A DNA stretch of 64,000 bases, taken from assembly GCA_000004985.1 (NCBI GenBank), contig GG738858.1. The stretch is one strand, 5' to 3'. The DNA comes from Naegleria gruberi (lineage: Eukaryota). A model generated the notes under the pieces. It was not told the DNA's origin, made no database searches, and was given only the letters and a program-made list of their open reading frames with translations. Position 1 is the stretch's first letter. Every line of letters begins with the position of its first letter. The translations under genes were made by a program, and so were the position numbers. Shown here piece after piece: positions 15,407 through 30,668 of the stretch.

Positions 15407-15493
15407 ACATTTTTGAAAAGTTCATAATTAATAGATATCAACAACTGTTCAGTTACATTTTATTGTTGCACCAATTTTTCTTTTTTGAAAAAA

Positions 15494-16720
15494 ATGACAT
15501 CAACAAGTGAACAAGTCCCACAACAACTTGCTGTTGTTGAAAGTGGAATCCCATTAATTAAAGAAGGAGATACAATTCTAGTAAAATTAAATAGTGGTTC
15601 AATGATTTTACAACAACATATTAAACCAGAAACAAATTTAAAAATCGGAAAGAAACAAACTTTTCCTTTAAAACTTTTAATAGGACAACCATATTATGCC
15701 TTCTATGAAATTTTGTCATCACAAAATGAAGGAGAGAAGCAACCATCAGTAGTTTTAAAACGTATGTTGTATGATCCTGATAGTGAGGAAGCTTCTGCTG
15801 TTATTCCTGGTGATGATGAAGCACCACAAGAAGAAATGCAAGATGAAGAAGGTGAAACTGTTGATGCTAATACAAAGAGATTAATTGATAATAACAAATC
15901 ACAAACTTTAACTCAAGATGAAATTTTAGAATTAAAAAAACAAGGAGTTGAAGGAAAGGAAATTATCAGCAAATTAATTGAAGGAAGTAAATCTTTCCAA
16001 GTTAGAACTCAATTTTCCCAACAAAAATACTTGAAGAGAAAGAAGAAGAAATATTTAACTTACTTTAAAGTTATTGATCCTTCTGCATATGATATTTGTG
16101 ATTTTTACTTTTCAAAGAATCCTGAGAAAATTAGTCATATGAGAGTTGATGGACTTGCTCAATTATTAACTTTAGGTTCTATTTATCCAAATAGAAAAGT
16201 AATGGTAATGGAAACTTGTATGGGTTTAGTTACTGCTGCTGTTTTTGAAAGAATGGGATGTTATGGTGAAATTATTCGTGTAGCTCCAGATGATATGCTT
16301 GGTAAACATGTTCATGCTGTTACCTATTTGAATATTAACAGAAATTTAGCTTCTAGTGTTGTTAGAGATGTTCCATTTGGAAAACTTGTATCTGGTGATA
16401 TGTCTGATGAAAATGCTACTGATGAAAATATGGTTGATTGTTTATTGATTGCTACTAATCAATATAGTCCAATCTCAGTTCTTACAAACTTGTATCCTTA
16501 TCTTAGAGAATCAGGATCATTTGCTATTTATTCTTCATACAGAGAACCATTAGAAGAATGTCACAACAAATTAAAGGATGACAAGTCAGCTGTTTTGGTT
16601 CAATTGACAGAAACATGGATGAGAGAATACCAAGTTCTTCCAAAGAGGACTCACCCAATGATGACAACGTCTAGTGCAAGCGGTTTCGTTTTGTCAGGTA
16701 TCAAAGTAAAGATTGATTAA
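15494..16720 (+). CDS. TRM6: tRNA (adenine58-N1)-methyltransferase non-catalytic subunit TRM6/GCD10
   Basis: DNNKSQTLTQDEILELKKQGVEGKEIISKLIEGSKSFQVRTQFSQQKYLKRKKKKY is colinear with human TRMT6 DDGKSQKLTQDDIKALKDKGIKGEEIVQQLIENSTTFRDKTEFAQDKYIKKKKKKY. The C-terminal ETWMREYQVLPKRTHPMM also matches (SETWLRNYQVLPDRSHPKL). Confidence 0.8.
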   Translation: MTSTSEQVPQQLAVVESGIPLIKEGDTILVKLNSGSMILQQHIKPETNLKIGKKQTFPLKLLIGQPYYAFYEILSSQNEGEKQPSVVLKRMLYDPDSEEASAVIPGDDEAPQEEMQDEEGETVDANTKRLIDNNKSQTLTQDEILELKKQGVEGKEIISKLIEGSKSFQVRTQFSQQKYLKRKKKKYLTYFKVIDPSAYDICDFYFSKNPEKISHMRVDGLAQLLTLGSIYPNRKVMVMETCMGLVTAAVFERMGCYGEIIRVAPDDMLGKHVHAVTYLNINRNLASSVVRDVPFGKLVSGDMSDENATDENMVDCLLIATNQYSPISVLTNLYPYLRESGSFAIYSSYREPLEECHNKLKDDKSAVLVQLTETWMREYQVLPKRTHPMMTTSSASGFVLSGIKVKID

Positions 16721-19683
16721 TCTGTGTCAATAATTTTCTTTGGAGATCCACCAAATGATTGTCTTCTTGTCAGTCTTCTCATGTTGGCTGAATCACTAAG
16801 ATTCTCACTTGTTGCAACTGGAGTTCTTGTTTGCTTAATAGGACTATTTCTTCTCTTGACTGTTTTTCTTATCTTTTTACCTTCGATTTTTTCTGCGGCA
16901 GGATCATTACTACTTGTGCTAGTGTCAACACTATCATCAGAATCAGCGTTTGGATTAAAGACAGATATTGGACTGATATCACTAATAGATCTTGGTGTTT
17001 CGTAAGCCTTCTTTTCCATGTCAGGAGTTTTGGTTTGTTGACTTGTGGTAGGTGGTTGTACTGGCTGAACCTTATCTTTAATTACACTACTTCCAGATGA
17101 AAGCAAAGGGGTATTCGTGTTGGTTTCAATATTTGGAGTTGATGGATTGGAAGTGCAAATCGTTAACTTTTCTGGTGTTGATTTGAAACTGTCAATAGTC
17201 GAGGTTCTAGATTCTATTTTTTTCTCCCTTACTTTATCTTTCAAGGACTTATTTTCTTCCATAACAGTTTTGTTAATCTCAAGAATTCTTCTGTTGGTAG
17301 TGTTCAAATGTTCTACTTGTTCTTCAAGCTCTTTAATTCTTTCTGAAGAGGAGAGTTGGGCTGAATTTTTGAGAGTTTGTCGCAACCTATCTTCACTGTC
17401 AGCAGCTTTTTCTTTTTCAAGCATCATCATTCTTTCGCTTGATTTTATCTTTGCATTCTTCGTTGATATTTCTCTTTCTAATTTTCTAATTGTTTCTTTT
17501 TGAGATTCCGTCTCAGTGTTCAAAAATGAAACTTGTTCCTGAAGCTTTTTCATCGAATCCTCAAGCTGTCGTTTTCTTTCAGTGGATGATTCCAAAACCT
17601 CAGTTGTTTGTTTAAGAGTTTCTTCTGTGTTTGAATTTTGTAATCTCACTTTGTTATAGTTATCCTTTAATTTGGCAATAACTTCTTGTAATTCACCAAT
17701 ATTTCTTTGCAATTCCGACTTATTTTCTTGTAAGATGGCTATTGTTCTTTGCAGGTTTGTGTTTTCTTCTTTAAGTGCATCATTTTCCAATCTTTCAGTG
17801 TGTAATTGATCTCCAAACTTATCTTTCTGCTCTTTTAGCTCTTGGAATGAGTTTTCCAAATCATTTCTGAGATTTTGAACGTCTTGCATCAATTTTGAGT
17901 TTTCTTGTTTGTAAACAACTATTTTGTCTGACTGCTCTTTAGTTAGAGTTTCTTGGGAGGTAAGATCTTTTTTGAGTTTCTTGATTGCATTACTTAAATT
18001 CAACATTTGGTCTTTCATTTTAGATTTTGAGTCAGACAGCTGCACAATCTCAAAGTTCATTTGCTCTTGTAATGACTGGAGTCTCTCCTCATAATTTTTG
18101 ATAATCTGTTCATTTTCCTTATTCTTTTCCATTATTAGTGATTCAATAAAATTGTTGTGATAGTGAGGCATTGTTTCATAAATCCAATTAGTCATTAAAT
18201 CCGCCAACAATGTGTTTTTATCTCCTTTTGCTTTTTCGTTATATGAATCCAAACACTCCCTAAATTTCAAATTCATTTCTTCAATATTTCGAAAACTTCC
18301 AGATGTTGAAATCTGTGAAAAGGAAGAGCTCAGAATCTTGCTGTTGTACTCATAATTTATACTCCTAACCTCCTCTCTCACTATTTTAAAAATTTGAACA
18401 ATTGAATCATGTAATTGTCCAACATGGAATTGAACATCTCTTACCACAAGCTTTGAATTTTCCAAGAAATAAGAAACTGCTTCTGATTCTGATTCGAAGT
18501 GAATGTTTTCCAACTCTGTTTGATCCACGTTCTGTCTTAACAGCTTTTGCATTTTTGTTTTGTAAATTTTGATAGATTCTGAATGAACAGCATCACATTC
18601 AGTTTTCACTACATTACTCCAACAAGAATCCACTATAATAGAGCCATCATTGATGGCATTACAATAGTTCTCACACAAACTTATGAACATCCTACCATTC
18701 AACATTCTTCCTCCCAGTTCTTTAGGAGCAACTGTGTCTAATATTTTTTGTTTGAGTTTTTCTATTTGATTCCTAAACTCTGGTCTTATTTCATAGGATT
18801 CCAATTTTGAGGCATTTTGTAATTTCTTTTCATCGTGAATAGGTCTTACCAGAGTGAAACAATCTCTATCTCGGAAATATTGTTTCAGAGAGGCCTTAAT
18901 TTGTTGCTTATTCCTTTCAGTTTCGGTGTATCTTTCCTCACTGGATAAGGCAAATTCAAGATAATTCTTTGGTGTAATTTGTAAATCCAACGAAAAGTCT
19001 CTCACAACCCATAAAAAAGATGGGAATATTGCTTGATTATCCAATCCTCCAAGTTTTGATTTAACATATTTTGAAAGTTCAGTTACCAACCTAATAGATT
19101 TAGAAACTAGTTCAAACCAACAACTTACCCTAATCTGGTTATTGCGTTGTCATCAATGCTTCCTTGACTATTATAAATAAACATTGAACTCATTAGTAAA
19201 GCAAGAGAGAACACCTAAAACTGTTGAAGAAATACAACCAATAACAACTTACTTGTGTATCATAGGTCTCATTTGCACTGAAGGATCCAATTCCCTCCGA
19301 ATCAACAATTAATAATCTAAAATCTGGATGGTTGTCATTGCTTACTTTCATCGGAACGCTCCAGACCCATAATCCTTTTGTGCAGGGTAAATGTGAGGGA
19401 CTGGTAGTAAAGCTGTATTATTATTTACTAATGAATATTATTGGTTTTTAAAAACATACCCATCATTCCTATCTAAAATTTGATTAAGTAAAAAGCTTTT
19501 CCCCGATCGATAAACTCCAGCTATCGAAAGTACAGCAACCGGTTCTTTAATTTTCGAAATCACAGAGATTGCTTTTTTATCCACTTGAAACTTTCCATCA
19601 ATGTATGATATCAAAGGAATTTGTTGTGGCTGCAGCGTTGACAGCGAGGGCGATGTTGAATAGTCTTGTAGTGATGGTTCCAT
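16717..19683 (-). CDS. guanylate-binding protein (GBP/atlastin-type dynamin-like large GTPase) with long coiled-coil tail; join(19683..19460,19412..19253,19214..19129,19090..16717)
   Basis: G1 is VLSIAGVYRSGKSFLLNQI and TKGLWVWSVP also matches. The stretch ...RLGLVTELSKYVKSK...FPSFLWVVRDFSLDL follows GBP1 AMDQLYYVTELTHRIRSK..FPDFVWTLRDFSLDL. There are three introns of 47, 38 and 38 nt with GTATGT/GTAAGT donors. The 3' end overlaps TRM6 convergently by 4 nt. Confidence 0.8.
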
Positions 19684-19949
19684 TTTTTACTAAGGATTGG
19701 TTCAAAAATATGGCGCCAAAACATGTATTTGCTTTTAGCGCCAAAAATAAATCAATATATTTGATGTATGGTGACATATTCTGAGGAGTGAATAAGAGTT
19801 AATACTATTAATATTAATTATTCTGAACAACAACATCATGAGATTGATTATTTATCTTTTTAATAGACTTAAAACAAACTATTTTGTAAAAATTCAAAAA
19901 GGTATTGTAATATCAATAGAATTTGTTATTTACATTTAGTGCCAAAAAA

Positions 19950-22900
19950 ATGCAACCAGCCAATCGAAAGCCAATCAAGGTCAAACCATCGAAAGGTTCT
20001 AGCACACAACAACCTGTAATTATAACAACCTCATCATCTAATCATCAACAAAATAATTCCGAATCACATTCTCCATCACCTCTAATTTTATCACCCACAA
20101 CCACTGGCACAAATAATTATGTATTTGAAAATGAAGGAGAACAAAACGAACAAAAAACCAACAAGAAAATCAGAGCAAAAAGAACAGGAGGGATATTGGG
20201 AAACTTTTTCGACGTTTCTAAAAATTTAAATGAAAATACACTAAATCAAATGGAATCCAAGATGAAAGAAATTATTGAATCGAGAAATTTGTTTAAAGAA
20301 AATAACTTGGAGTTGTGTGAAATGATCATGTCTGCTGATGTGGAATCGAAGAATGAATCAATTTCTCAACAAGAAATTCTCAAAATTGATTTGATAAATA
20401 GGCAAATGGCCGAATTGGAATCATTTGAAACAAATCTGAATAACTTTATTCAATCAAATGGCTCTTCTGGAATTACAAATCATCTTGTAAACGCTGTTAA
20501 TACAAGAAATGCTATGAGAAATGAGTGTATGAATAATCTTAACGAAGTTACTAACTTGTTGGGTGAAACATTGGAATCAATGAAAAATGACATCCCCGTA
20601 GAAAGGATTCAAAAAATAGATGAAATTCATTCAAAAATTCTTTTAGAAGAAGATGTTTTATCAGTTTCTGGTTCTGGTGAGTCTTTCAATATGTATGAGT
20701 TTAATAGGAGATCAAAGGAATACTTTGAGTGGGTTAAAAAATCCAGTCCAAAACTGATTATTCAATACAAGGAAACAAAGGCTGTTTTCAAGAAGTTTCT
20801 AGAAGCAATGGAAAAAGAGCTAAATCTTATGAAAGAGGTTAAAGAGGAGGAGAAGAAAATGATGGATAATTTTGAGTATATAATTACCTACACTCCTGAA
20901 TATTTGGAGGCAAAGCGACAAACAACTGCTGAGCCAAGTGAAAGAAAGACTCATATCAAGGAGTTACATAGCTACTATTTGAAACGTAAAATTGAAATGG
21001 AATCCAAAACACAACTACCACTTAAACCAGACCTTGAAAGCGTCAATCTATTTTACAATCAGCTTAACTCTTTGAAAACAGACTTGAGAGAGGCTAAAAG
21101 AAATCATCTAAAATTGAAATTTGAAAAAGAAAATCATGAGTTGGATGGAGTTTCTCAGTCTATTCTACAAATTTCAACACAAAAAGTTCAAGAAGCATCT
21201 GAGGTAGTTCATAGAATCGAAGAAAAGATTCAGCTATTTGAATCTAATCTAGAAAAATCCATCAAATTGCATCCAGAAATTTTAATTTACATTAACAGTT
21301 TCTCTAAGAATGATGATCTTATTCCTATATCAATTAAGGATACAAAGTTGGAGGTGAAGAGATCTATCAAAGATTATGAAATATTGAAAATAATCAATCC
21401 AAGGGTTTGCAAAGCAAAATTTGCTAACCAAATATCAATAATCAAACAGTACTCTTTTTCAGATAGCAAATCAAGAAAAGAGTTTATGAAGGAGGTTCAA
21501 ATTTTACACAAAATGAATCATCCTTGTATTGTAAAGATAGAAGCGTACTTTTGTGAGAATGACTTTGTATTTATTCAAATGGAACACAAAGGAGATTTAA
21601 CTCTAGCTGATTGGCTCCTTAAATCTCCTTCAGAATATGAAAAACGAAATGTATTTCACTCTGTGGCACAAACTTTGAAATATGTGCACGACTTTAATAT
21701 TATTCACTGTGACATCAAACCAGAGAATATAATAATGTCACCAATCGGTTCTAAATCAATTGGATCCGTACAGGAGATATATGAATCATATAGACCTATT
21801 CTTATTGACTTTGATATATCAGTTGACAAGAATTCCTTACAAAATTCTTTAGCAATCCGATCCACTTTAACTTACTTGGCTCCAGAAGTTGTTCATGCAG
21901 CTTCTACAGGTGCAGATTTCAAGAGTGTTTTGAATACATCAATAGATGTTTGGTCATTTGGTGTTATGATGTTTAAGGCATACTATCCAAATGATGAGGT
22001 GTTGCTTCTTCCAAACGAACACTCAGTAAGAATACCAGAACATGAAAATCAATATTTGCAAGATCTTTTATCAAATATTTTACAAAGAGACGCAAAAGAT
22101 AGACCTTGTGCTGAAGATATTTACTCTCATATCTATTTCAACTCGTCCATCATGAATGAACTAGTATCTCAAAAACAAATAGTTAGTACAGAAGACAAGA
22201 TGCAATCATTCAATAGATTTCTGCATCACTACAAGAAAAGAATGCAAAGGAACACTTCAGATGTTATTCAAATACGTATGAGAAGAGATGCAATAGTAGG
22301 TCACACATTACAAGCATTTTCATCTATGGAAATCAATGACTTACTTTTGAGACTTCAAGTGCAATTTGTTGGTGAAATTGGAATGGATTTGGGAGGAATT
22401 ACATCTAATATGTATACAGAGTTCTTCAGACAATCAATACAAAATGATCATAACATTTTTGAATGTGGTTCAAGCTCTAAAACTGGAGGTTACCTACCAA
22501 AGGCAGATGCACCAGTTGAGGTTTGTGAAAGTATTGGAAAAATTTTAATCAAAACAATTTACGATCAAAGAGTTATTCCAGAAGTGCTTTCTCCTTTCAT
22601 ATTCAAGTTTCTTTCACACAAATATTCATCAAGCGATCCTGATTACAATTCTTTGCAAGTAACTTTCAGAGATTTGGAACAATTTGATGAATCTATGGCA
22701 AGATCTTTGAGAATGCTCCTTACTCATGAAGGAGTGCACGAATGGGAAATTTCTTTTGATGGCCTGGGACAAGACTCTAATAGAATGGTAAATGATCAAA
22801 ATAAGCACGATTATGTTAAAATGAAAATGAGAAATGTTCTCTTACTCTCAAGATTAGAACAATTGAAAGCTATTAGGAAAGGTTTTAATTCGCTTGTTGA

Positions 22901-23309
22901 GCTTCAGCCTCAGCTGGCATTATTTAGTTGGAAAGAGCTAATGCTGCTTTGTTGTGGAAAGGATTATATTGATGTAAAATCAGTGATTGACCTATTGAAG
23001 TTCAAAGATTTCCCTACTAATAGTAGGACTCCTTTATTTTTCACTCAATTTATTTCTTCACTCTCTAGCATTCAGTTAAGGCAATTTATTGAATTCTCCA
23101 CTGGTCAATGTGGAATTTCCTACGGATGGCAATCCAAGGCTCTGAGCATCACTGTACAATACTCTTCCTCTTCAGTTGATTCATTACCTGTTTCTCATAT
23201 TTGCTCATTCATATTAGACCTTCCTGACTATAACAATTATCAACTTTTAGAAACGAAAATTAAGCAAGCTTTCGAATTTACCTCATCCTCCGGCTTTTAC
23301 ATTGCTTAG
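19950..23309 (+). CDS. protein kinase domain fused to C-terminal HECT E3 ubiquitin-ligase domain (coiled-coil N-terminus)
   Basis: The kinase core is HPCIVKI...IIHCDIKPENIIM...IDFDIS...LTYLAPEV...DVWSFGVMM. The HECT start is LRLQVQFVGEIGMDLGGITSNMYTEFFRQ. The HECT end is LPVSHICSFILDLPDYNNYQLLETKIKQAF...SSGFYIA*, with the catalytic Cys context. The first in-frame ATG is at 19950; the ORF-track start 19923 is a TTG. Confidence 0.75.
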   Translation: MQPANRKPIKVKPSKGSSTQQPVIITTSSSNHQQNNSESHSPSPLILSPTTTGTNNYVFENEGEQNEQKTNKKIRAKRTGGILGNFFDVSKNLNENTLNQMESKMKEIIESRNLFKENNLELCEMIMSADVESKNESISQQEILKIDLINRQMAELESFETNLNNFIQSNGSSGITNHLVNAVNTRNAMRNECMNNLNEVTNLLGETLESMKNDIPVERIQKIDEIHSKILLEEDVLSVSGSGESFNMYEFNRRSKEYFEWVKKSSPKLIIQYKETKAVFKKFLEAMEKELNLMKEVKEEEKKMMDNFEYIITYTPEYLEAKRQTTAEPSERKTHIKELHSYYLKRKIEMESKTQLPLKPDLESVNLFYNQLNSLKTDLREAKRNHLKLKFEKENHELDGVSQSILQISTQKVQEASEVVHRIEEKIQLFESNLEKSIKLHPEILIYINSFSKNDDLIPISIKDTKLEVKRSIKDYEILKIINPRVCKAKFANQISIIKQYSFSDSKSRKEFMKEVQILHKMNHPCIVKIEAYFCENDFVFIQMEHKGDLTLADWLLKSPSEYEKRNVFHSVAQTLKYVHDFNIIHCDIKPENIIMSPIGSKSIGSVQEIYESYRPILIDFDISVDKNSLQNSLAIRSTLTYLAPEVVHAASTGADFKSVLNTSIDVWSFGVMMFKAYYPNDEVLLLPNEHSVRIPEHENQYLQDLLSNILQRDAKDRPCAEDIYSHIYFNSSIMNELVSQKQIVSTEDKMQSFNRFLHHYKKRMQRNTSDVIQIRMRRDAIVGHTLQAFSSMEINDLLLRLQVQFVGEIGMDLGGITSNMYTEFFRQSIQNDHNIFECGSSSKTGGYLPKADAPVEVCESIGKILIKTIYDQRVIPEVLSPFIFKFLSHKYSSSDPDYNSLQVTFRDLEQFDESMARSLRMLLTHEGVHEWEISFDGLGQDSNRMVNDQNKHDYVKMKMRNVLLLSRLEQLKAIRKGFNSLVELQPQLALFSWKELMLLCCGKDYIDVKSVIDLLKFKDFPTNSRTPLFFTQFISSLSSIQLRQFIEFSTGQCGISYGWQSKALSITVQYSSSSVDSLPVSHICSFILDLPDYNNYQLLETKIKQAFEFTSSSGFYIA

Positions 23310-23867
23310 AGAGATATTATTTACAGCCAAGCCTGTATCTATTAAGGAAATAGATTTCGTTGATTTTACTGCCGCCGTTTTTATGCAATTGGAGGTAGCA
23401 CTTCATGGGCGCCAAGTTCCATTCAAAACAGTAGTAGATTGCACAGTAAAAACCAACAACAGCAGCAACTTTTGAAATTATTTTGATCAAAGAGGCCATG
23501 ATATTTAGTTTATTGCTACTGAAATATTCATGACACAACAACATTTCAAGGTTAGTTGTTTCCGTTGAGAGTTGACGTTCAACATTGTATTCCCCAACCT
23601 GTTTCTAAAAAGGTGAAAGACAAACCCGATCTTTTTCCCTCTCATCATAAATCTCCTCACAGAAAAAAATATTTCAACTCTGTAATCAAACTCTTTATTT
23701 CCTCGGTTAAAGAGAAAATTGTTACCCAGAGTTTCATTTGAAATCTTTTGGATTTCATCATCAAGTTGTATTATTATTAAAATATAAAAAGATCAACGTT
23801 TGATCCTAGAGTTTCATCATCAACACCATTTGTAAAATATATAGTAAAATAGTAAATATTGTGGACG

Positions 23868-26240
23868 ATGAGTGGCAATCCTTTTAACTTGTTGAGTATT
23901 TCTATTGCGGAATTTGATAAACTAAGTGGAAATAGTTTAACTCACACATACCCGACAGATGTTCACTTGGAAAAGTATTACCCTACCAGTAATATTGCTG
24001 ATAAATGTATTCCTGATGGAGCTCATATTTACCATGAAGATCAAACCGGAATAATATTACCAATAACCGAGGATAACACAGAATTAATTCAAGTGCTTCA
24101 CAAGTACATTTCTTCCTTTAAATTCACAACTTCACCTACACCACCCAAACCAATACCATCATCACCATCATCTAATATACCAAATAATAATGATAATGGT
24201 TTTCAAAATTCACAATACTTATATGGAAGTGTTTTCTTCAGGAACAAACTTGATGACAGAGTGCGAAGAGGAGCAATTCAAAAGAGTATTCTTGTTGTAA
24301 CAACAAAGCCACTCTTCACTCTCTTTATTCCTCTTATGAGGGATGCAATTGATAGGTTAGTATATTCATACATTGTTCAATGTTCATCATTTGATTAGAA
24401 TTATAAGTATTGAGGAAGCACACATAGAGAAATCTGAAAAGGAAGTAAGGGAAGTTTGCCGAGATCAAGTTACACTAGTGTTAAAAGATCTTTATGATAG
24501 CTTAAAGGAATCTATAGATGTTGCCTCAATGAACGCAACAAGAAAATTATCGATATCCTTCTCCGATAAGATTTATAATTTAAAAGTACCAAAGTAAGTT
24601 TATTTTAATATTTCCTTGTTAACACAGGAACTAGATGTAAAGAAGAGAATTTTAATGGTGCTTCTCTGATAGACCTTTTAACAATATTTGAAAAACACAT
24701 TTGTTATATTTGGGAAGCATTGCTCTTCTCGCGAAGAATTGTATTTGTAGGATCGCCAGCTAAAGTTGTGACGATGTGCTGTCTCTCTTGTCCTTTATTA
24801 ATTTCTCCTCTTAAAGGAATAACCAATAGGTAAGTTTTTGATTATTTTAAATGTGGAAACGAATTATATTTTAGGATTTCGCCCTATGTGACTATTGGAG
24901 ATCAAAAATTGAGTGAACATGTCTATGTGTGTGGAATGACTAATCCATTACTAGAAAATTCTAAATATGGATGGGATTACTATGCCAGTATTGCTGCTGG
25001 TAAAGTACAATACAAAAGACAAAAAATCTCATTAATTTCAAAATCAGATTTTAAAGATTTTATCAAACAAGTACTTTCTGGAATTAAAAAAGGAAAAAAG
25101 GAAAATTGGGTTCGTGAACAATTCACACAATTCAATTTAAATTTCCTCAAACACGTTCCAAACTCTAAGAAGAAAAGTATCACTCAAAATTTTATTCATA
25201 GTCATGTATATAAGAGATTTTGTAGTACAAATGTGTTGTCTAGCTCTCCACCCTCTCCAATTGCAGATAACACTCTTTCGGTGGGCAGTGTTAGATTTCC
25301 AAAGATTTCATTTGAGGGCTCTGACTCTCCTTTAAGAATATTCCCTCCAAAACTTGTGAAAAGCAAACATTCACAAAGTTATAGTGGTGAATTGAGATTA
25401 TCACCCAAAAAAACACCCACTTCTATTAAGAGTATATACAGGAAGCTTAACCCATTCATTTCATCCAAAAATGAATCACAATTTTCTCAAAAGGATCTCA
25501 TTTCTCAAGTCGTATCTGATGGAGAACTGGAGTTCCTTTGGCCATATATAATGCCTAACAGTGAATCCATGTTAGATTGGACTGTAACAGGGCATGTTAC
25601 ATTGTACAAAATGACATTATGTATCAAAGATGGTTTAAATACCTTTTATTCAAGACATAGTGGACCTTTGAGCCACAAATATGAAAAAGTGCTAGCAAAT
25701 ATTCATTTCATATTAGGAAAACTTTTTAAAGAAAACGAAGAAGTAATTTATTCACAGGAACAACTTGCTTATTTGGATAGAAAATCACTCGATGAAAAGG
25801 AAAAAATACTGAATGAACAAACAGCTAAAAACAAGAGAGATAGTTCATTCCTACATATCAAATTGCAAAAACCATTAGAACAAGAATATATGGTGATCAA
25901 CTCAGAAGTTAAGCAAACATCTCAAAGATCTTTGTTTGTACATAAGGTTGTTCGTCTTCAACTTGATTCTAACAAGCAATATACCTTTTTGGAGAACCCA
26001 GAATATTTTGTTTACGTTGTGAATCGAGTTAGTGAAGAACAAACTGAGCTCACACAAGTTCATGTAATAAGAGCAACTAATCTTAGTGAAAAACGAGACA
26101 AGTATACATACTTTAGTTCAGCTTTAGAAACTAGAAAATTACTAATCGAAAGATTGGATAAAGATGCAACAGATTATAGCAACATTGTAGTGAGTGATTC
26201 AGATTCGAGTGAGGATGAGGATTTAGGATCAAGTGAATAA
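23868..26240 (+). CDS. DENND6/FAM116-type DENN-domain protein; exons approx 23868..24354, 24398..24593, ~24627..24820, 24875..26240
   Basis: YLYGSVFFRNKLDDRVRRGAIQKSILVVTTKPLFTLFIPLMRDAI matches DENND6A [44 protein letters not shown]. ...IFEKHICYIWEALLFSRRIVFVGSPAKVVTMCCLSCPLLISPLK and ISPYVTIGDQKL...VCGMTNPLL also match. Introns of 43 and 54 nt are verified. The exon 2/3 junction cannot be made in frame with canonical sites. Confidence 0.6.
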
Positions 26241-26342: not shown

Positions 26343-27811
26343 ATGGGTGAGCGAACTGACAAACTCAAGGAATGGGCAAAGGGAGCCTGTTCTGTTGGAA
26401 ATTTCTACACACTTTTTCTGGCTTTGGCCATGTTGATCACCGGTACCGTCAACACTATTGGTATGTAGGAAATTTATGCGTAGGAAATATTCATTGTGGA
26501 ATGTTGATCAAATTATATATCGCTTGTTATTATGTAAAATTCTTCTTGTTGATTCTATTAAATAGCCACTAAATTACAGGATGTTAGTAATGCTAAGGGT
26601 ATTGGTGATGGGCCACCAACCGCTTTCCAACATGCCTTGTAGGTTTAATTTTTGTTATTGTTGTTAATTAATTAATTAATTTTCATATGATGATTTTAAT
26701 ATTACTAATTATGATGAAATTTTCGTTTTCAATAGTTTCCAAACTGCAGCAATGTTTTTGGGTGAATTGCTCTGTCTCATTCCACACAATCTTCAATTAT
26801 TATATAACAAAATCCGTGGTAGAGGAAAAGCTAAAGAAGAGGAATCAGACTCTTTGATGGATTCCGAAAAACCAAAACCAAAGCCATTCACAAATCCACT
26901 CATCTTTTGGATTCCTGCTTGTTGCGATTTGGGAGGTTCAACTTTGCTCAGTAAGTATTTTGGAAATTCATTTTGCATGATGAAATTCAATTATGTCACA
27001 AACAGATTTTGGTCTCTTCTATACTGATGCTTCTGTTTATCAAATGTTGAGAGGTATCTTGGTCGTTTTTACTGGTTTATTCTCAGTAATTTTCCTTAAA
27101 GCTAGATTGTACTATCACCACTGGTTTGGTTTATTATTAATCCTTGTTGGTTGTGTTATTGTCGGTTTGAGTTCATATTTGTATGCTGAAGATTCTGGAG
27201 CTTCTAGAAATGCTTGGTTGGGTGATCTTTTCGTTGTTTTGGCTCAAATTTTGGCTGCTACTCAATTCATTGTTGAAGAAAAGTTCTTCAGTAGATATGA
27301 TGTTGCTCCATTGCAAGCTGTTGGTTGGGAAGGATACTGGGGTTTGTCAATGACAACTATTGTTTTGTTTGTCTTGTATTGGATTCCAGGTAGCGATTAT
27401 GGAAGTGCTGAAAATGCTGTTTATGCATTTGCTCAATGTTTGAATAATTGGAAGATTGCTGTTTCTACTTTGGGTTCAATTTTCTCAATTGCTTTCTTCA
27501 ACTTCTTTGGTGTTTCTATCACTAAGAGAATCAGTTCTACCACTAGATCAACTATTGACTCTTGTCGTACTATTTTCATTTGGGCTATTTCCCTTATTAT
27601 TGGTTGGGAAGAATTCCATTGGCTCCAAGTTGGTGGTTTCGTCGTTTTGTTGTTGGGTACCTCTCTTTACAATGAAATTATTAAGGTTCCATATTACCAC
27701 AAGTGGTATTTGGGCAGAAAGGAACTTTATTTGCAAGAAAAGGAAAGAAAGGAAGCTGAAAAGAAAGCTTTGGCTGAAGAAAAGAAGAATAGAAAGAGAA
27801 ATATTCAATAA
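26343..27811 (+). CDS. solute carrier family 35 member F6 (SLC35F6/ANT2BP-like DMT-superfamily transporter); join(26343..26460,26566..26638,26736..26950,27006..27811)
   Basis: The spliced product ...GTVNTIATKLQDVSNAKGIGDGPPTAFQHAFFQTAAMFLGELLCL...VYQMLRGILVVFTGLFSVIFL is colinear with human SLC35F6 GSINTLSAKWADNFMAEG..SFQHPFLQAVGMFLGEFSCL..SFQMLRGAVIIFTGLFSVAFL. The introns are 105, 97 and 55 nt. Confidence 0.8.
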
Positions 27812-27885: not shown

Positions 27886-30668
27886 ATGAGTGAACATCAA
27901 ATCTCCCTCAACAAAGAGACAGACATGGCTGTTGTTCGTTTGGATCAAATAAATGATCATTATTACAAGCTTTTCAATCTTAATGTTCCGAAGGATTTGG
28001 TGAATAACATCAAGAAGGCAATCGTTTCTCAAGATTTAGTTTGGATCATTGATAATGACGGAAAATTGTACGAGTGCAAATTTTCTGGTACCATGTCACC
28101 TTGTTATTGCAAGTTGTTTGATACTAGGGAAATTAATGAGCCAATTTTAGATATTGTTGGAAATGACAATCATTTATTTCTCACCACCAAATCACAAATG
28201 TATGGATTGGGGGTATGTTTTATGATCTATTGATATTAATTATTGATTTAGGGAAATGGATTTGGACAATTAGGATTAGGTAGTACAAAATTTAAAGAGT
28301 CTACTTGTCAACCAATAACCTTTTTCGATAGAATTAATGTAAATAGTAGCAAATATAAGGATAGAGTTGTGAAGATTGCTTGTGGAGAGGCATTTACTTT
28401 ATTCTTGACAAATACTAATAAGGTTTACAGTTGTGGAAGGTAAGAATTGAATATTTAACAACATAAGTCATTTTGAAAAGTAATTATTATGGACAACAGA
28501 CATTCCCTATGGAATCAGCTTTTCTTCCAACTCCTCAAAGAATTACTGAAATTTTCAAAGAAAATCAAAAAGTTGTTAACATTCATTGTGGCCAAACATA
28601 TTCTTTATTTGAGTTGGATGATGGATCATTTCTTTGCTATGGAAGATTGGGTAGTTTTTTGGTGAAAGATCCTAAAATTGTTCCAAAATTGCAAGAATTT
28701 GACAGGTTTGTGCTATTGAATTGATTTATTAACCATTTCAGTATTGAGTCTGTGTATTGTTTATCAGAACGGATTATTTTCATAACTAAATTCATGAAAA
28801 GAATTGATGTGGTGATTAAGACAATCTCTAAAGCAAATCAAGACAATTTTTTTGTTGTCCATTCTGTCAAGGAAGGTTCATTTCAATGTGTGGAGAAAAA
28901 CTCTCAAGAAATTATTTTGAACTGTAACGAGCAACACTTTAAATTATTTCACATTCAATATAAAGCTACCAATTCAGTTAAAGTCTACCAAGGTGATAAA
29001 TTAATCAGAACAATAACTATTAATTCAGATCCAAGTAGATTGAGGGTTTGTTTTACTTCTGGCGAAAACATTCTCATTTATATGAGCAACAGCACTTCAC
29101 AACGTAAAAAAACAATTCATGAATTGATTTTGGGAAAATCTAAAGAGTTCAAACTACCTTCTGATACAATTAATGTTGGATCCTCACCTGTTTATGCATT
29201 CCTTCCATTCATTCAAATTAGAAATCCTCAATTTTATGATTTACTTAGAACAGGTGATTTATTCACTTCGGATAGATCGCCAACCATTATTCAAGATTTG
29301 ATTGATTACTGTTTTTCACAAGACTGTTCATTCTTGAGAAGTTACACATCACCAATGGTTGCTGAGTTAATATACTTATTAGAGAAAATGGGTGTTATCT
29401 ACAATGAATTCACTGCTCCATTAATTTTTCAATCATCAGTACAAATTTCAGCTAGTGAAGATTTTGCTCCAAATGCTGATGCATACGTTGTGAAGCTAAA
29501 ACAAGAGGGAATTACCCCAAAGCTATTTGGTAATTCTCAATTTTTCAATAATCAAACGCCAGCTTATCTACCACCAATTGGTTCAGTTTTGGGTAAACTT
29601 TTTAACTCTGAATCATCAGCAGATACTTCTATAGTCATTGACCAGTTTGGATTGGAAAAAGTCAAATGCCACAGAAGTGTATTGATTGCACAAAGCACCT
29701 TTTTTGAGGCGTTCTATACTGGACATTTTGCTTCAAATGAAATCAATCTCTTCAATGACGAAGATACAGGAGAATTGGATATCAACACTGAGGATATGAG
29801 CGAAGAGGAGAGACAAATGCTGATAGACCCTGAATCTCAAATCAAAACCAGAGCATTGAGAAATATTTTAATGATGTTTTATGAAATTGAGCCAACTGTT
29901 GAGTATGAATTGGTAATTCCAATGCTAGACATGGCTCACAAATTAGATTCTGAGAATTTGGTTATGAAATGCTTGAATATGTTTGAAAATAATTTGGATG
30001 ATGAAAGCTATCAAGTTGTTAATCAGTGGCTGGGAGGTCTTGAACAAAAGACCGATATTCAAAATATGATTTTGAAGACTGCAGATACTTGGGCAAGTCA
30101 AGTATCTCAAAAAATAATACTATTCGAAAATTATGAATTGGAAGAAGAATTTGGTAAATATATTAGAAAACTTAATAATTTCGAAATTTGCCAAGAATTC
30201 ATTCCAAATTTTACAACTCACTATGTTGCAACTAAGCTTGACAAGAAGGATTACAATTTCCTATGTGCAGTAGCTGGTAATTGTAGTATTGTTAAACCTG
30301 AATATTTAAGAAAATGTGGAGAAGAGCAATGTTGGATTGAGGAAGGGCCATATCTTTTAAATAATTGTGCTAATGAATTTGAAAAAAAGGTTCAACTTCT
30401 CTTAAAGGTAAACATGGATAACAAGTTATTGAAGAAATTTGCCTTCTCTTCATATTGTGCACATATATTTTTNNNNNNNNNNNNNNNNNNNNNNNNNNNN
30501 NNNNNNNNNNNNNNNNNNNNNNATGTTGGTGTAAAATGTGAAAAGTATTACATTATTGACTACCACAATTTGGTGGATGTTTTACTTGGCAGTCAAGCAT
30601 CAAAATTCCATTTTGAAAAGAAACGTAAAAGAGAAGATCAAGATCAAAATAGATTTCATTTTTATTAG
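27886..30668 (+). CDS. RCC1-repeat plus BTB/POZ domain protein (RCBTB-like); join(27886..28212,28252..28439,28481..28705,28742..30668); contains N run 30473..30522
   Basis: The RCC1 blades read MYGLG|GNGFGQLGLGS...KIACGEAFTLFLTNTNKVYSCGR and NIHCGQTYSLFELDDGSFLCYGRLG. The BTB core is SIVIDQFGLEKVKCHRSVLIAQSTFFEAFYTGHF...LRNILMMFYEIE. The introns are 39, 41 and 36 nt, and all exons join in frame. Confidence 0.75.

What the first reader, a model, noticed from the sequence alone, without database searches (positions are those of the whole stretch)
19950..23309. Single polypeptide combining a protein-kinase domain and a HECT E3 ubiquitin-ligase domain
One uninterrupted 3.4-kb ORF encodes a coiled-coil N-terminus. 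It also encodes a kinase catalytic core (HCDIKPEN, DFD, APE, DxWSxG). Finally it encodes a complete HECT domain, from LRLQVQFVGEIGMDLGG to the catalytic-Cys tail SHICSF...LPDY. A kinase fused directly to a HECT ligase is not an architecture I know from standard model proteomes. The kinase has HCD and DFD variants, so it may be atypical.
Basis: partly seen in the sequence, partly recalled or inferred. Interest (0 to 1): 0.6.

Follow-up and report, generated by a model that had tools for sequence, protein, structure and literature searches.

The report
Naegleria kinase–HECT ubiquitin ligase gene
This is a real single gene of the amoeboflagellate Naegleria gruberi encoding a protein kinase fused directly to a HECT ubiquitin ligase; the design was noted in a 2013 survey, occurs in many protist lineages, and no paper in the searched library describes its function.

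Summary
Window 19950-23309 (+) is one uninterrupted 1119-codon ORF. It encodes a helical, E/K/L-rich N-terminus, a Pkinase domain (aa 487-730, E 5e-32) and a complete C-terminal HECT domain (aa 772-1114, E 2e-41).

The organism is Naegleria gruberi (Heterolobosea), not a dictyostelid. The protein is identical to NAEGRDRAFT_65394 / XP_002679180.1.

It is not a merged gene model:
- Orthologues in N. lovaniensis (syntenic) and N. fowleri keep the same layout.
- Three homologues from transcript-derived records carry both domains in one ORF.
- At least 86 of 278 proteins collected here have kinase then HECT, with a median 41-aa gap and HECT near the C-terminus.

N-terminal modules vary across the family: RCC1, ankyrin, LRR, TPR, Kelch or coiled coil.

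The catalytic residues of both domains are conserved. These are the kinase K, E, D, N and D, the HECT Cys, and the Phe four residues from the C-terminus. No member has a glycine-rich loop at the canonical position, so the kinase is atypical.

Grau-Bové et al. [quoted passage not shown]

Verdict: real and already catalogued, with no functional study found. Most likely it is a bifunctional phosphorylation-ubiquitination cassette. Interest is moderate to low.

The parts
19950..23309 (+). Complete intron-less coding sequence of the kinase-HECT protein (1119 aa plus stop). It equals NAEGRDRAFT_65394 / XP_002679180.1 / UniProt D2V9C7.
   Evidence: ORF. 100% identity and coverage to the N. gruberi predicted protein. 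Only the terminal stop in frame.
19950..20195 (+). N-terminal low-complexity stretch (about aa 1-82), rich in N, S, T and Q. Poorly conserved.
   Evidence: Composition. Weak alignment to the orthologues. The orthologues instead carry an extra N-terminal extension of about 90-100 aa that N. gruberi lacks.
20196..21302 (+). Helical, E/K/L-rich region (aa 83-451), probably coiled coil. No Pfam family. Shared with P0009, P0011 (Pharyngomonas) and P0013.
   Evidence: Composition. Long helices in the AF2 model at low pLDDT. No Pfam hit. Matched by phmmer in P0009, P0011 and P0013.
21369..22148 (+). Ser/Thr-type protein kinase domain (aa 474-733). Key residues are K499, E515, H586-C-D588-I-K-P-E-N593, D620-F-D622, A644-P-E646, D666xWxxG671 and R718. 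There is no glycine-rich loop: 'IINPRVCKA' stands in its place.
   Evidence: Pfam Pkinase E 5e-32. Motifs. Family-wide conservation. Confident AF2 kinase fold, with blocks mostly above pLDDT 87.
22188..22253 (+). Helix (aa 747-768) joining the kinase C-lobe to the HECT N-lobe. It aligns with the residues that precede the core HECT domain in the HUWE1 and Tom1 structures.
   Evidence: PDB alignments start at query 744-750 for HUWE1 and TOM1. Helix H287-308 of the model has pLDDT about 69-83. Column occupancy is 0.88-0.98 across 44 family members.
22263..23291 (+). Complete HECT domain (aa 772-1114, N-lobe plus C-lobe) with catalytic Cys1085 (nt 23202-23204).
   Evidence: Pfam HECT E 2e-41. E6AP alignment places C1085 opposite the E6AP Cys. 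Foldseek top hits are HUWE1, NEDD4, Rsp5 and WWP1 HECT domains at E 1e-19 to 1e-21. Cys conserved in 42 of 44.
23295..23297 (+). Phe1116, four residues from the C-terminus (the '-4 Phe' of HECT ligases).
   Evidence: C-terminus ...SSGFYIA*. Phe at this column in 40 of 44 family members.
19713..19746 (+). Two GCGCCAAAA motifs (reverse complement of an E2F-type TTTTGGCGC site) in the divergent promoter region shared with the upstream GBP-like gene. Possible regulatory element; whether it belongs to this gene is not shown.
   Evidence: These are the only 2 matches in 64 kb, against 0.08 expected. The syntenic N. lovaniensis intergenic region has TTTGGCGCCAAA.

Best explanation
Window 19950-23309 is the single-exon N. 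gruberi gene NAEGRDRAFT_65394. It encodes a member of a conserved protist family in which a Ser/Thr-type protein kinase domain is fused, through one short helix, to a C-terminal HECT ubiquitin-ligase domain.

Shown here:
- Both domains are complete.
- The kinase keeps the ATP-anchoring Lys499 and Glu515, the catalytic Asp588 and Asn593, and the metal-binding Asp620.
- The HECT domain keeps the thioester Cys1085 and the -4 Phe.
- The kinase-HECT order, the short gap and the C-terminal position of HECT recur across the family, while the N-termini vary.

Inferred:
- The N-terminal coiled coil (RCC1, ankyrin, LRR, TPR or Kelch in relatives) recruits or localises substrates or partners.
- The kinase-HECT cassette is one bifunctional output module. 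Either the kinase phosphorylates the recruited substrate so that the adjacent HECT ubiquitinates it, or, equally possible, the kinase phosphorylates the ligase in cis to switch it on. The second case would replace the trans-acting kinases that relieve autoinhibition of NEDD4-type HECT ligases.
- The kinase is probably active despite lacking a glycine-rich loop.
For: Single gene:
- Uninterrupted ORF, identical to the deposited N. gruberi protein.
- N. lovaniensis and N. fowleri orthologues have 49% identity, 94% coverage and both Pfam domains.
- Conserved synteny Gcd10p - GBP - kinase-HECT in N. lovaniensis.
- The only N. lovaniensis intron lies inside the kinase catalytic loop, not between the domains.
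- Transcript-derived homologues from Pharyngomonas, Gloeochaete and Gefionella carry both domains in one ORF.

Family:
- 105 representative clusters at E<=1e-30, many aligned in one stretch across query 465-1118.
- 86-95 proteins have kinase then HECT, with a median gap of 41 aa and HECT ending a median 6.5 residues from the C-terminus.
- Kinase and HECT pairwise identities are correlated, r=0.69, or 0.46 without close pairs.
- Variable N-terminal modules.

Catalytic residues, counted in 44 members: Lys 43, alphaC Glu 39, catalytic Asp 39, Asn 40, DFG Asp 39, HECT Cys 42, -4 Phe 40.

Fold: AF2 model of aa 461-1119 has pLDDT 87 and pTM 0.75, and its HECT part matches solved HECT domains.
Against: - No biochemical, genetic or expression data for any family member were found in the searched literature.
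- No canonical GxGxxG stands at the P-loop position in any of 44 members. The one regex hit lies in an insertion. In the five closest relatives and the query (Naegleria, Willaertia, Pharyngomonas and two unnamed P0009, P0010) the loop is about 4 residues shorter than in most other members, as read from the segments. Degenerate G-loops are typical of pseudokinases (established knowledge).
- Grau-Bové et al. place kinase-bearing N. gruberi HECTs with the very divergent G2E3-like class, and mammalian G2E3's HECT domain is reported to be non-functional.
- No N. gruberi transcript could be retrieved.
- The substrate-coupling and cis-activation steps are pure inference.
Confidence: 0.6

Rival explanations
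1. It is a HECT ligase with a pseudokinase module. The kinase-like domain no longer transfers phosphate and serves as a substrate-binding, nucleotide-sensing or allosteric scaffold next to the HECT domain.
For: No glycine-rich loop at the canonical position in 44 of 44 family members, and the loop is shortened in the closest relatives. HRD is HCD and DFG is DFD here. The Pfam match starts only at profile position 18.
Against: Conservation in 44 members: VAIK Lys 43, alphaC Glu 39, catalytic Asp 39, Asn 40, DFG Asp 39, APE Pro 44, plus the Ser/Thr-type D-x-K-P-x-N loop. Pseudokinases usually lose at least one of these (established knowledge). Non-RD kinases and G-to-D variants of DFG can be active (established knowledge).
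Confidence: 0.25
2. It is a kinase with a dead HECT-derived domain. The HECT domain has lost ligase activity, as reported for mammalian G2E3, and works only as a binding or regulatory domain of a signalling kinase.
For: The survey groups kinase-bearing N. gruberi HECTs with the fast-evolving G2E3-like class, and G2E3's HECT domain is reported to be non-functional. Identity to solved HECT domains is only about 20%.
Against: The catalytic Cys (42 of 44), the preceding His (38 of 44), the -4 Phe (40 of 44) and the GExGxDxGG motif glycines (G815 42 of 44; G816 34 of 44) are conserved. The match covers the full HECT length with both lobes. HECT is always at the C-terminus.
Confidence: 0.1
3. It is an annotation artefact: two adjacent genes, a kinase and a HECT ligase, read through as one ORF.
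For: No N. gruberi transcript evidence could be obtained here.
Against: There is no stop anywhere in 3357 nt. The junction is conserved and alignable across the family. Only about 13 residues separate the kinase end from the helix that precedes the HECT N-lobe. The layout is the same in four heterolobosean genomes and in three transcript-derived ORFs.
Confidence: 0.02

Closest known systems
Kinase-bearing 'GL-Bikonta' (G2E3-like, class IV) HECT proteins of N. gruberi and Ectocarpus siliculosus (Grau-Bové et al. 2013, PMC3673628)
   Same: Same organism and same architecture: a divergent HECT domain plus an 'unusual protein kinase domain of unknown function'. This gene is very probably one of those proteins or a paralogue of them.
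   Different: The paper gives one sentence and no accession that I could check, because no supplements are held. It does not describe the breadth of the family, the fixed kinase-HECT cassette, the variable N-termini or the missing G-loop.
Canonical HECT E3 ligases (E6AP/UBE3A, NEDD4/Rsp5/WWP/ITCH, HUWE1/Tom1)
   Same: Full bilobed HECT fold at the extreme C-terminus, with the catalytic Cys, the -4 Phe and a preceding N-terminal helix. The plan of substrate-recognition modules at the N-terminus and the catalytic domain at the C-terminus is also shared.
   Different: About 20% identity. A protein kinase domain sits immediately upstream, where other HECTs have WW, C2, RLD and similar domains. No solved structure contains both domains; the best TM-score normalised to the query is 0.38.
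Kinase plus RING or U-box E3 proteins: plant kinase-U-box PUBs, Arabidopsis KEG (RING plus kinase), mammalian MEKK1 (PHD/RING-like plus kinase). Named from my own knowledge, not tested here.
   Same: One polypeptide unites a protein kinase with a ubiquitin ligase, coupling phosphorylation and ubiquitination.
   Different: Those E3 modules are RING-type adaptors with no thioester intermediate. Here the E3 is a HECT enzyme with its own catalytic Cys. The domain order and kinase family are unrelated.
PINK1-Parkin, and JNK-ITCH or Src-NEDD4 regulation (from my own knowledge)
   Same: A kinase switches on a thioester-forming E3 by phosphorylating the ligase or ubiquitin. This is the functional analogy for the cis-activation model.
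   Different: Those act in trans between separate proteins, and Parkin is an RBR ligase, not a HECT. No evidence here shows that this kinase targets the ligase or ubiquitin.

Membership tests
HECT E3 ubiquitin ligases | Matches the HECT profile and fold over both the N-lobe and the C-lobe | tested here: met
   Pfam PF00632 E 2e-41, profile positions 13-300 of 306. E6AP HECT residues 5-355 aligned. Foldseek hits to HUWE1, NEDD4 and Rsp5 HECT at E about 1e-20 over 380-400 columns.
HECT E3 ubiquitin ligases | Catalytic cysteine in the C-lobe that accepts ubiquitin as a thioester | tested here: met
   C1085 in 'LPVSHICSF' aligns with E6AP 'LPTSHTCFN'. Cys in 42 of 44 family members.
HECT E3 ubiquitin ligases | HECT domain at the extreme C-terminus, with a conserved Phe four residues from the end | tested here: met
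   The protein ends ...GFYIA*, so F1116 is at -4. Phe in 40 of 44. The family median is 6.5 residues after the HECT alignment.
HECT E3 ubiquitin ligases | E2-dependent ubiquitin thioester formation and ligation activity | not testable with these tools
   Needs a biochemical assay.
Eukaryotic protein kinase (ePK) superfamily, active Ser/Thr kinases | Pkinase profile and bilobal fold | tested here: met
   PF00069 E 5e-32, 111.8 bits against a 31.7 cut-off. AF2 model shows the beta-rich N-lobe, the alphaC helix and a helical C-lobe at high pLDDT.
Eukaryotic protein kinase (ePK) superfamily, active Ser/Thr kinases | Beta3 Lys (VAIK) and alphaC Glu | tested here: met
   K499 and E515. Conserved in 43 of 44 and 39 of 44.
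Eukaryotic protein kinase (ePK) superfamily, active Ser/Thr kinases | Catalytic loop HRDxKxxN with the catalytic Asp and Asn | tested here: met
   HCDIKPEN. D588 is conserved in 39 of 44 and N593 in 40 of 44. The Arg is replaced by Cys (a non-RD kinase); Arg is present in only 15 of 44.
Eukaryotic protein kinase (ePK) superfamily, active Ser/Thr kinases | DFG motif with the metal-binding Asp | tested here: met
   DFD. D620 is conserved in 39 of 44. The Gly position is Asp in 21 and Gly in 15 of 44.
Eukaryotic protein kinase (ePK) superfamily, active Ser/Thr kinases | Glycine-rich loop GxGxxG between beta1 and beta2 | tested here: not met
   No GxGxxG in the protein. 'IINPRVCKA' stands in its place. 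No member of 44 has it at the canonical position; the single regex hit lies in a beta2-beta3 insertion.
Eukaryotic protein kinase (ePK) superfamily, active Ser/Thr kinases | Phosphotransfer activity | not testable with these tools
   Needs a kinase assay.
GL-Bikonta (G2E3-like, class IV) HECT family of Grau-Bové et al. 2013 | Phylogenetic placement of the HECT domain inside that clade | not tested
   Only the verbal description fits (an N. gruberi HECT protein with a kinase domain). No tree was built and the paper's accession list is not held.
Kinase-HECT cassette family (delimited here) | Kinase directly N-terminal to a C-terminal HECT, joined by a short conserved helix, with the two domains co-varying | tested here: met
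   Single-stretch alignments across both domains. 86-95 members with the same order and a median gap of 41 aa. Identity correlation r=0.69.

The most novel reading that the evidence does not exclude
The kinase-HECT cassette may be an ancient, possibly LECA-age, self-contained phospho-ubiquitin signalling enzyme. Its glycine-loop-less kinase would phosphorylate ubiquitin, the E2 or its own HECT domain, giving a one-chain analogue of PINK1-Parkin. Interchangeable N-terminal sensor domains (RCC1, ankyrin, LRR, TPR, Kelch, coiled coil) would plug different inputs into the same output. Named members come from Discoba, Amoebozoa, Metamonada, malawimonads and glaucophytes, plus stramenopiles according to the literature. 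That spread is compatible with such an age, but no rooted phylogeny was made.
Probability: 0.1. Interest if true: 0.8.

Novelty: already known. Interest (0 to 1): 0.35.

Why it matters
Phosphorylation and ubiquitination are usually coupled between separate proteins. Here both catalysts sit about 13 residues apart in one chain, and the arrangement is kept across many eukaryotic lineages. That makes it a natural system for asking how a kinase can gate a HECT ligase.

The kinase also keeps every catalytic residue while lacking a glycine-rich loop. That bears on what an active kinase minimally needs.

The value is as an unstudied family, not as a discovery of a new architecture. The gene is annotated in public databases, and the architecture was noted in 2013.

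Tried and rejected
- Exact-sequence contig look-ups for the N. gruberi and N. fowleri proteins found nothing, so no transcript or extra genomic context was obtained.
- A word-index search with the HECT part alone returned one fragment.
- A word-index search with the 44-sequence family profile was swamped by generic kinases. Family breadth therefore rests on the exhaustive representative search.
- AF2 on the full length with 3 sequences failed, pLDDT 36. Only the kinase-HECT part could be modelled.
- The afdb50 fold library was unavailable, so no named AlphaFold-database relatives were obtained.
- I guessed that the N-terminal helical segment within the extension of the N. fowleri and N. lovaniensis orthologues is a CUE/UBA-like ubiquitin-binding domain. 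Pfam gave no hit, and N. gruberi has no such sequence in the window, so the guess was dropped.
- I half-remembered a Dictyostelium 'hectPK' gene. No paper contains the term and the Dictyostelium kinome paper never mentions HECT, so it is not used.
- Searches for the locus tag and for 'kinase-HECT' phrases found no paper.
- There is no paralogue of either domain elsewhere in the window.
- The merged-gene hypothesis was rejected (see rival explanations).
Full report
**Observation.** The window holds one uninterrupted ORF on the + strand, from 19923 (TTG) to 23309. Its first ATG is at 19950, giving 1119 aa and a stop at 23307-23309. The coding frame has only the terminal stop, while the other two forward frames have 73 and 115 stops.

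**Domains.** Pfam gives Pkinase (aa 487-730, E 5e-32, 111.8 bits against a cut-off of 31.7) and HECT (aa 824-1111, E 2e-41, 143.1 bits against 23.9). The PDB sequence search aligns aa 772-1114 with the whole crystallised E6AP HECT domain. C1085 lies opposite the Cys of E6AP's 'tshtC' motif, the catalytic residue by established knowledge. HUWE1 and Tom1 alignments start already at aa 744-750. The N-terminal 470 residues have no Pfam family. They are E/K/L-rich and predicted as long helices, but at low confidence. 'Coiled coil' is therefore plausible, not proven.

**Source organism.** The protein is 100% identical over its full length to 'predicted protein [Naegleria gruberi]' (EFC46436.1 / XP_002679180.1 / NAEGRDRAFT_65394 / UniProt D2V9C7). 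Naegleria is a heterolobosean (Discoba), not a dictyostelid. The window's GC content of 30-37% does not argue against this. The deposited gene model is exactly the ORF found here.

**Not a merged gene model.**
- N. lovaniensis and N. fowleri orthologues (49% identity, 94% coverage) carry both Pfam domains.
- The alignment is strongest across the kinase, the junction and the HECT domain.
- The N. lovaniensis locus is syntenic: Gcd10p, then a GBP-like gene on the opposite strand, then the kinase-HECT gene.
- Its single 101-nt intron splits the codons of HCD|IKP inside the kinase. It does not lie between the domains.
- Three homologues come from transcript-derived records: Pharyngomonas kirbyi GECH01011195 (labelled a complete ORF), a Gloeochaete wittrockiana MMETSP record and a Gefionella okellyi Trinity contig. 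Each has both domains in one ORF.
- I could not retrieve an N. gruberi transcript.

**A family, not a one-off.** An exhaustive phmmer search of 1.84 billion cluster representatives gave 105 clusters at E<=1e-30. Many aligned in a single stretch from about query residue 465 to 1118, that is, across kinase, junction and HECT. Re-scoring with the separate domains gave the following:
- 86-95 of the collected proteins have kinase then HECT in that order.
- The median gap between the two alignments is 41 aa.
- HECT ends a median 6.5 residues from the C-terminus.
- The median length of sequence before the kinase is 460 aa.

Most 'HECT-only' hits are short fragments. Kinase and HECT pairwise identities are correlated across 44 members (r=0.69, or 0.46 after removing close pairs). 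That fits the two domains evolving together as one unit, but it is not a phylogenetic proof of a single fusion.

Named members are:
- Naegleria (three species), Willaertia magna and Pharyngomonas (Heterolobosea)
- Tieghemostelium lacteum (a dictyostelid)
- Gloeochaete (a glaucophyte)
- Anaeramoeba ignava (Metamonada)
- Gefionella (a malawimonad)

Many others come from Logan, ENA or JGI records without an organism name. The literature adds Ectocarpus.

**Variable N-termini.** Pfam finds different modules in front of the cassette:
- RCC1-like repeats (T. lacteum)
- Ankyrin repeats (P0022, Gefionella)
- LRR plus filamin repeats (Anaeramoeba)
- TPR (P0047)
- Kelch (P0063)

P0009, P0011 (Pharyngomonas) and P0013 share the helical N-terminus of the query. 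This is the usual HECT plan of recognition modules at the N-terminus and the catalytic domain at the C-terminus. The difference is that a kinase always sits directly upstream of the HECT domain.

**Junction.** The kinase fold ends near aa 733. A helix (aa 747-768, pLDDT about 69-83) follows and leads straight into the first HECT strand. This helix aligns with the residues preceding the HECT core in the HUWE1 and Tom1 structures. It is alignable across the family, with column occupancy 0.88-0.98. Only about 13 residues therefore separate the two catalytic domains.

**Catalytic competence.** The table gives conservation in a 44-member alignment.

| Residue | Members conserved (of 44) |
|---|---|
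| VAIK Lys | 43 |
| alphaC Glu | 39 |
| HxD His | 44 |
| Catalytic Asp | 39 |
| Catalytic-loop Asn | 40 |
| DFG Asp | 39 |
| APE Pro | 44 |
| Subdomain XI Arg | 44 |
| HECT Cys | 42 |
| His two residues before the HECT Cys | 38 |
| -4 Phe | 40 |

The D-x-K-P-x-N loop and the Thr in the P+1 loop indicate Ser/Thr specificity (established knowledge).

The real anomaly is the glycine-rich loop. No member has GxGxxG at the canonical position, and the single regex hit lies in an insertion. In the query and its five closest relatives the beta1-beta2 turn ('IINPRV', 'LSSRVF') is about four residues shorter than in most other members, as read from the segments. Retention of all other catalytic residues argues for an active but atypical kinase. 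A nucleotide-binding pseudokinase cannot be excluded.

**Structure.** AF2 with three sequences failed for the full length, pLDDT 36. With 44 sequences, aa 461-1119 gave pLDDT 87 and pTM 0.75. Foldseek against the PDB returns HECT domains (HUWE1, NEDD4, Rsp5, WWP1, E6AP) at E 1e-19 to 1e-21 over 380-400 columns. No solved chain covers both domains; the best query-normalised TM-score is 0.38. The AlphaFold-database library was not available.

**Literature.** Grau-Bové et al. [quoted passage not shown] They place them in a weakly supported, fast-evolving class IV together with G2E3, whose HECT domain is reported to be non-functional. I could not check their accession list. No paper in the library mentions the locus tag, 'hectPK' or any kinase-HECT phrase. 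The Dictyostelium kinome paper does not mention HECT. The architecture is thus catalogued, and no functional study was found.

**Mechanism (inferred).** The variable N-terminal module, here a probable coiled coil, recruits or localises partners. The invariant kinase-HECT cassette is the output.

Two non-exclusive models fit the data:
1. The kinase phosphorylates the recruited substrate and the neighbouring HECT ubiquitinates it.
2. The kinase phosphorylates the ligase in cis to release it. This is analogous to trans-acting kinases on NEDD4-family ligases or to PINK1 on Parkin (established knowledge, not tested here).

Confidence is about 0.95 that this is a genuine single-chain kinase-HECT family member, about 0.65 that both domains are catalytically active, and about 0.4 for functional coupling as described.

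**Verdict.** The taxon guess was wrong, and the architecture is already on record and widespread in protists. The novelty category is 'already known'. What this analysis adds is the extent of the family, the fixed cassette, the variable N-termini and the family-wide missing G-loop. Interest is 0.35.

Noticed in passing
window 19713-19721 and 19738-19746; L001 5838-5849: The 266-bp divergent intergenic region between the GBP-like gene (-) and the kinase-HECT gene (+) holds two GCGCCAAAA motifs (reverse complement of an E2F-type TTTTGGCGC site). They are the only two in the 64-kb window, against 0.08 expected. The syntenic N. lovaniensis spacer has the palindrome TTTGGCGCCAAA, the only site in 15.8 kb. 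This may be a conserved cell-cycle-type promoter element. Which gene it serves is unknown.
   Followed up: partly
L001 6001-9821 (N. lovaniensis orthologue), intron at about L001 8077-8180: The N. lovaniensis orthologue has a 101-nt GT..AG intron that splits the kinase catalytic-loop codons HCD|IKP. N. gruberi has no intron there. This is an intron gain or loss within the genus.
   Followed up: yes
P0002 aa 1-110 and P0003 aa 1-120, compared with window 19684-19950: The N. lovaniensis and N. fowleri orthologues have an extra N-terminal extension of about 90-100 aa that includes a conserved segment (IPTSML.VVDAICLGYPSISRERIIVLLKKYHYSEQKVREYLDQW) that looks helical. N. gruberi lacks it, with no tblastn hit in the window. 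It has no Pfam match, so my CUE/UBA-like guess is unsupported.
   Followed up: partly
window 16717-19683 (-): The upstream neighbour is a guanylate-binding-protein-like GTPase split by at least one intron. The GBP N-terminal domain is divided between ORFs 19438-19683 and 16717-19089. It carries a long coiled-coil tail with a weak ATG17-like match. The gene order is conserved in N. lovaniensis.
   Followed up: no
window 15485-16720 (+), 23859-24398 (+), 26993-27811 (+), 28752-30668 (+): Other neighbours by Pfam are a Gcd10p-family tRNA m1A methyltransferase subunit, an Avl9/Afi1-like N-terminal fragment (probably one exon of a larger gene), an EamA/SLC35-type transporter and a BTB-domain protein.
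   Followed up: no
P0014, P0022, P0035, P0046, P0047, P0063 (family members from other organisms): The same kinase-HECT cassette is preceded by RCC1-like, ankyrin, LRR plus filamin, TPR or Kelch modules in different lineages. Some full-length 'HECT-only' hits (for example P0081 and P0085) align from about query aa 660-705 onward. They may retain a remnant of the kinase C-lobe.
   Followed up: partly
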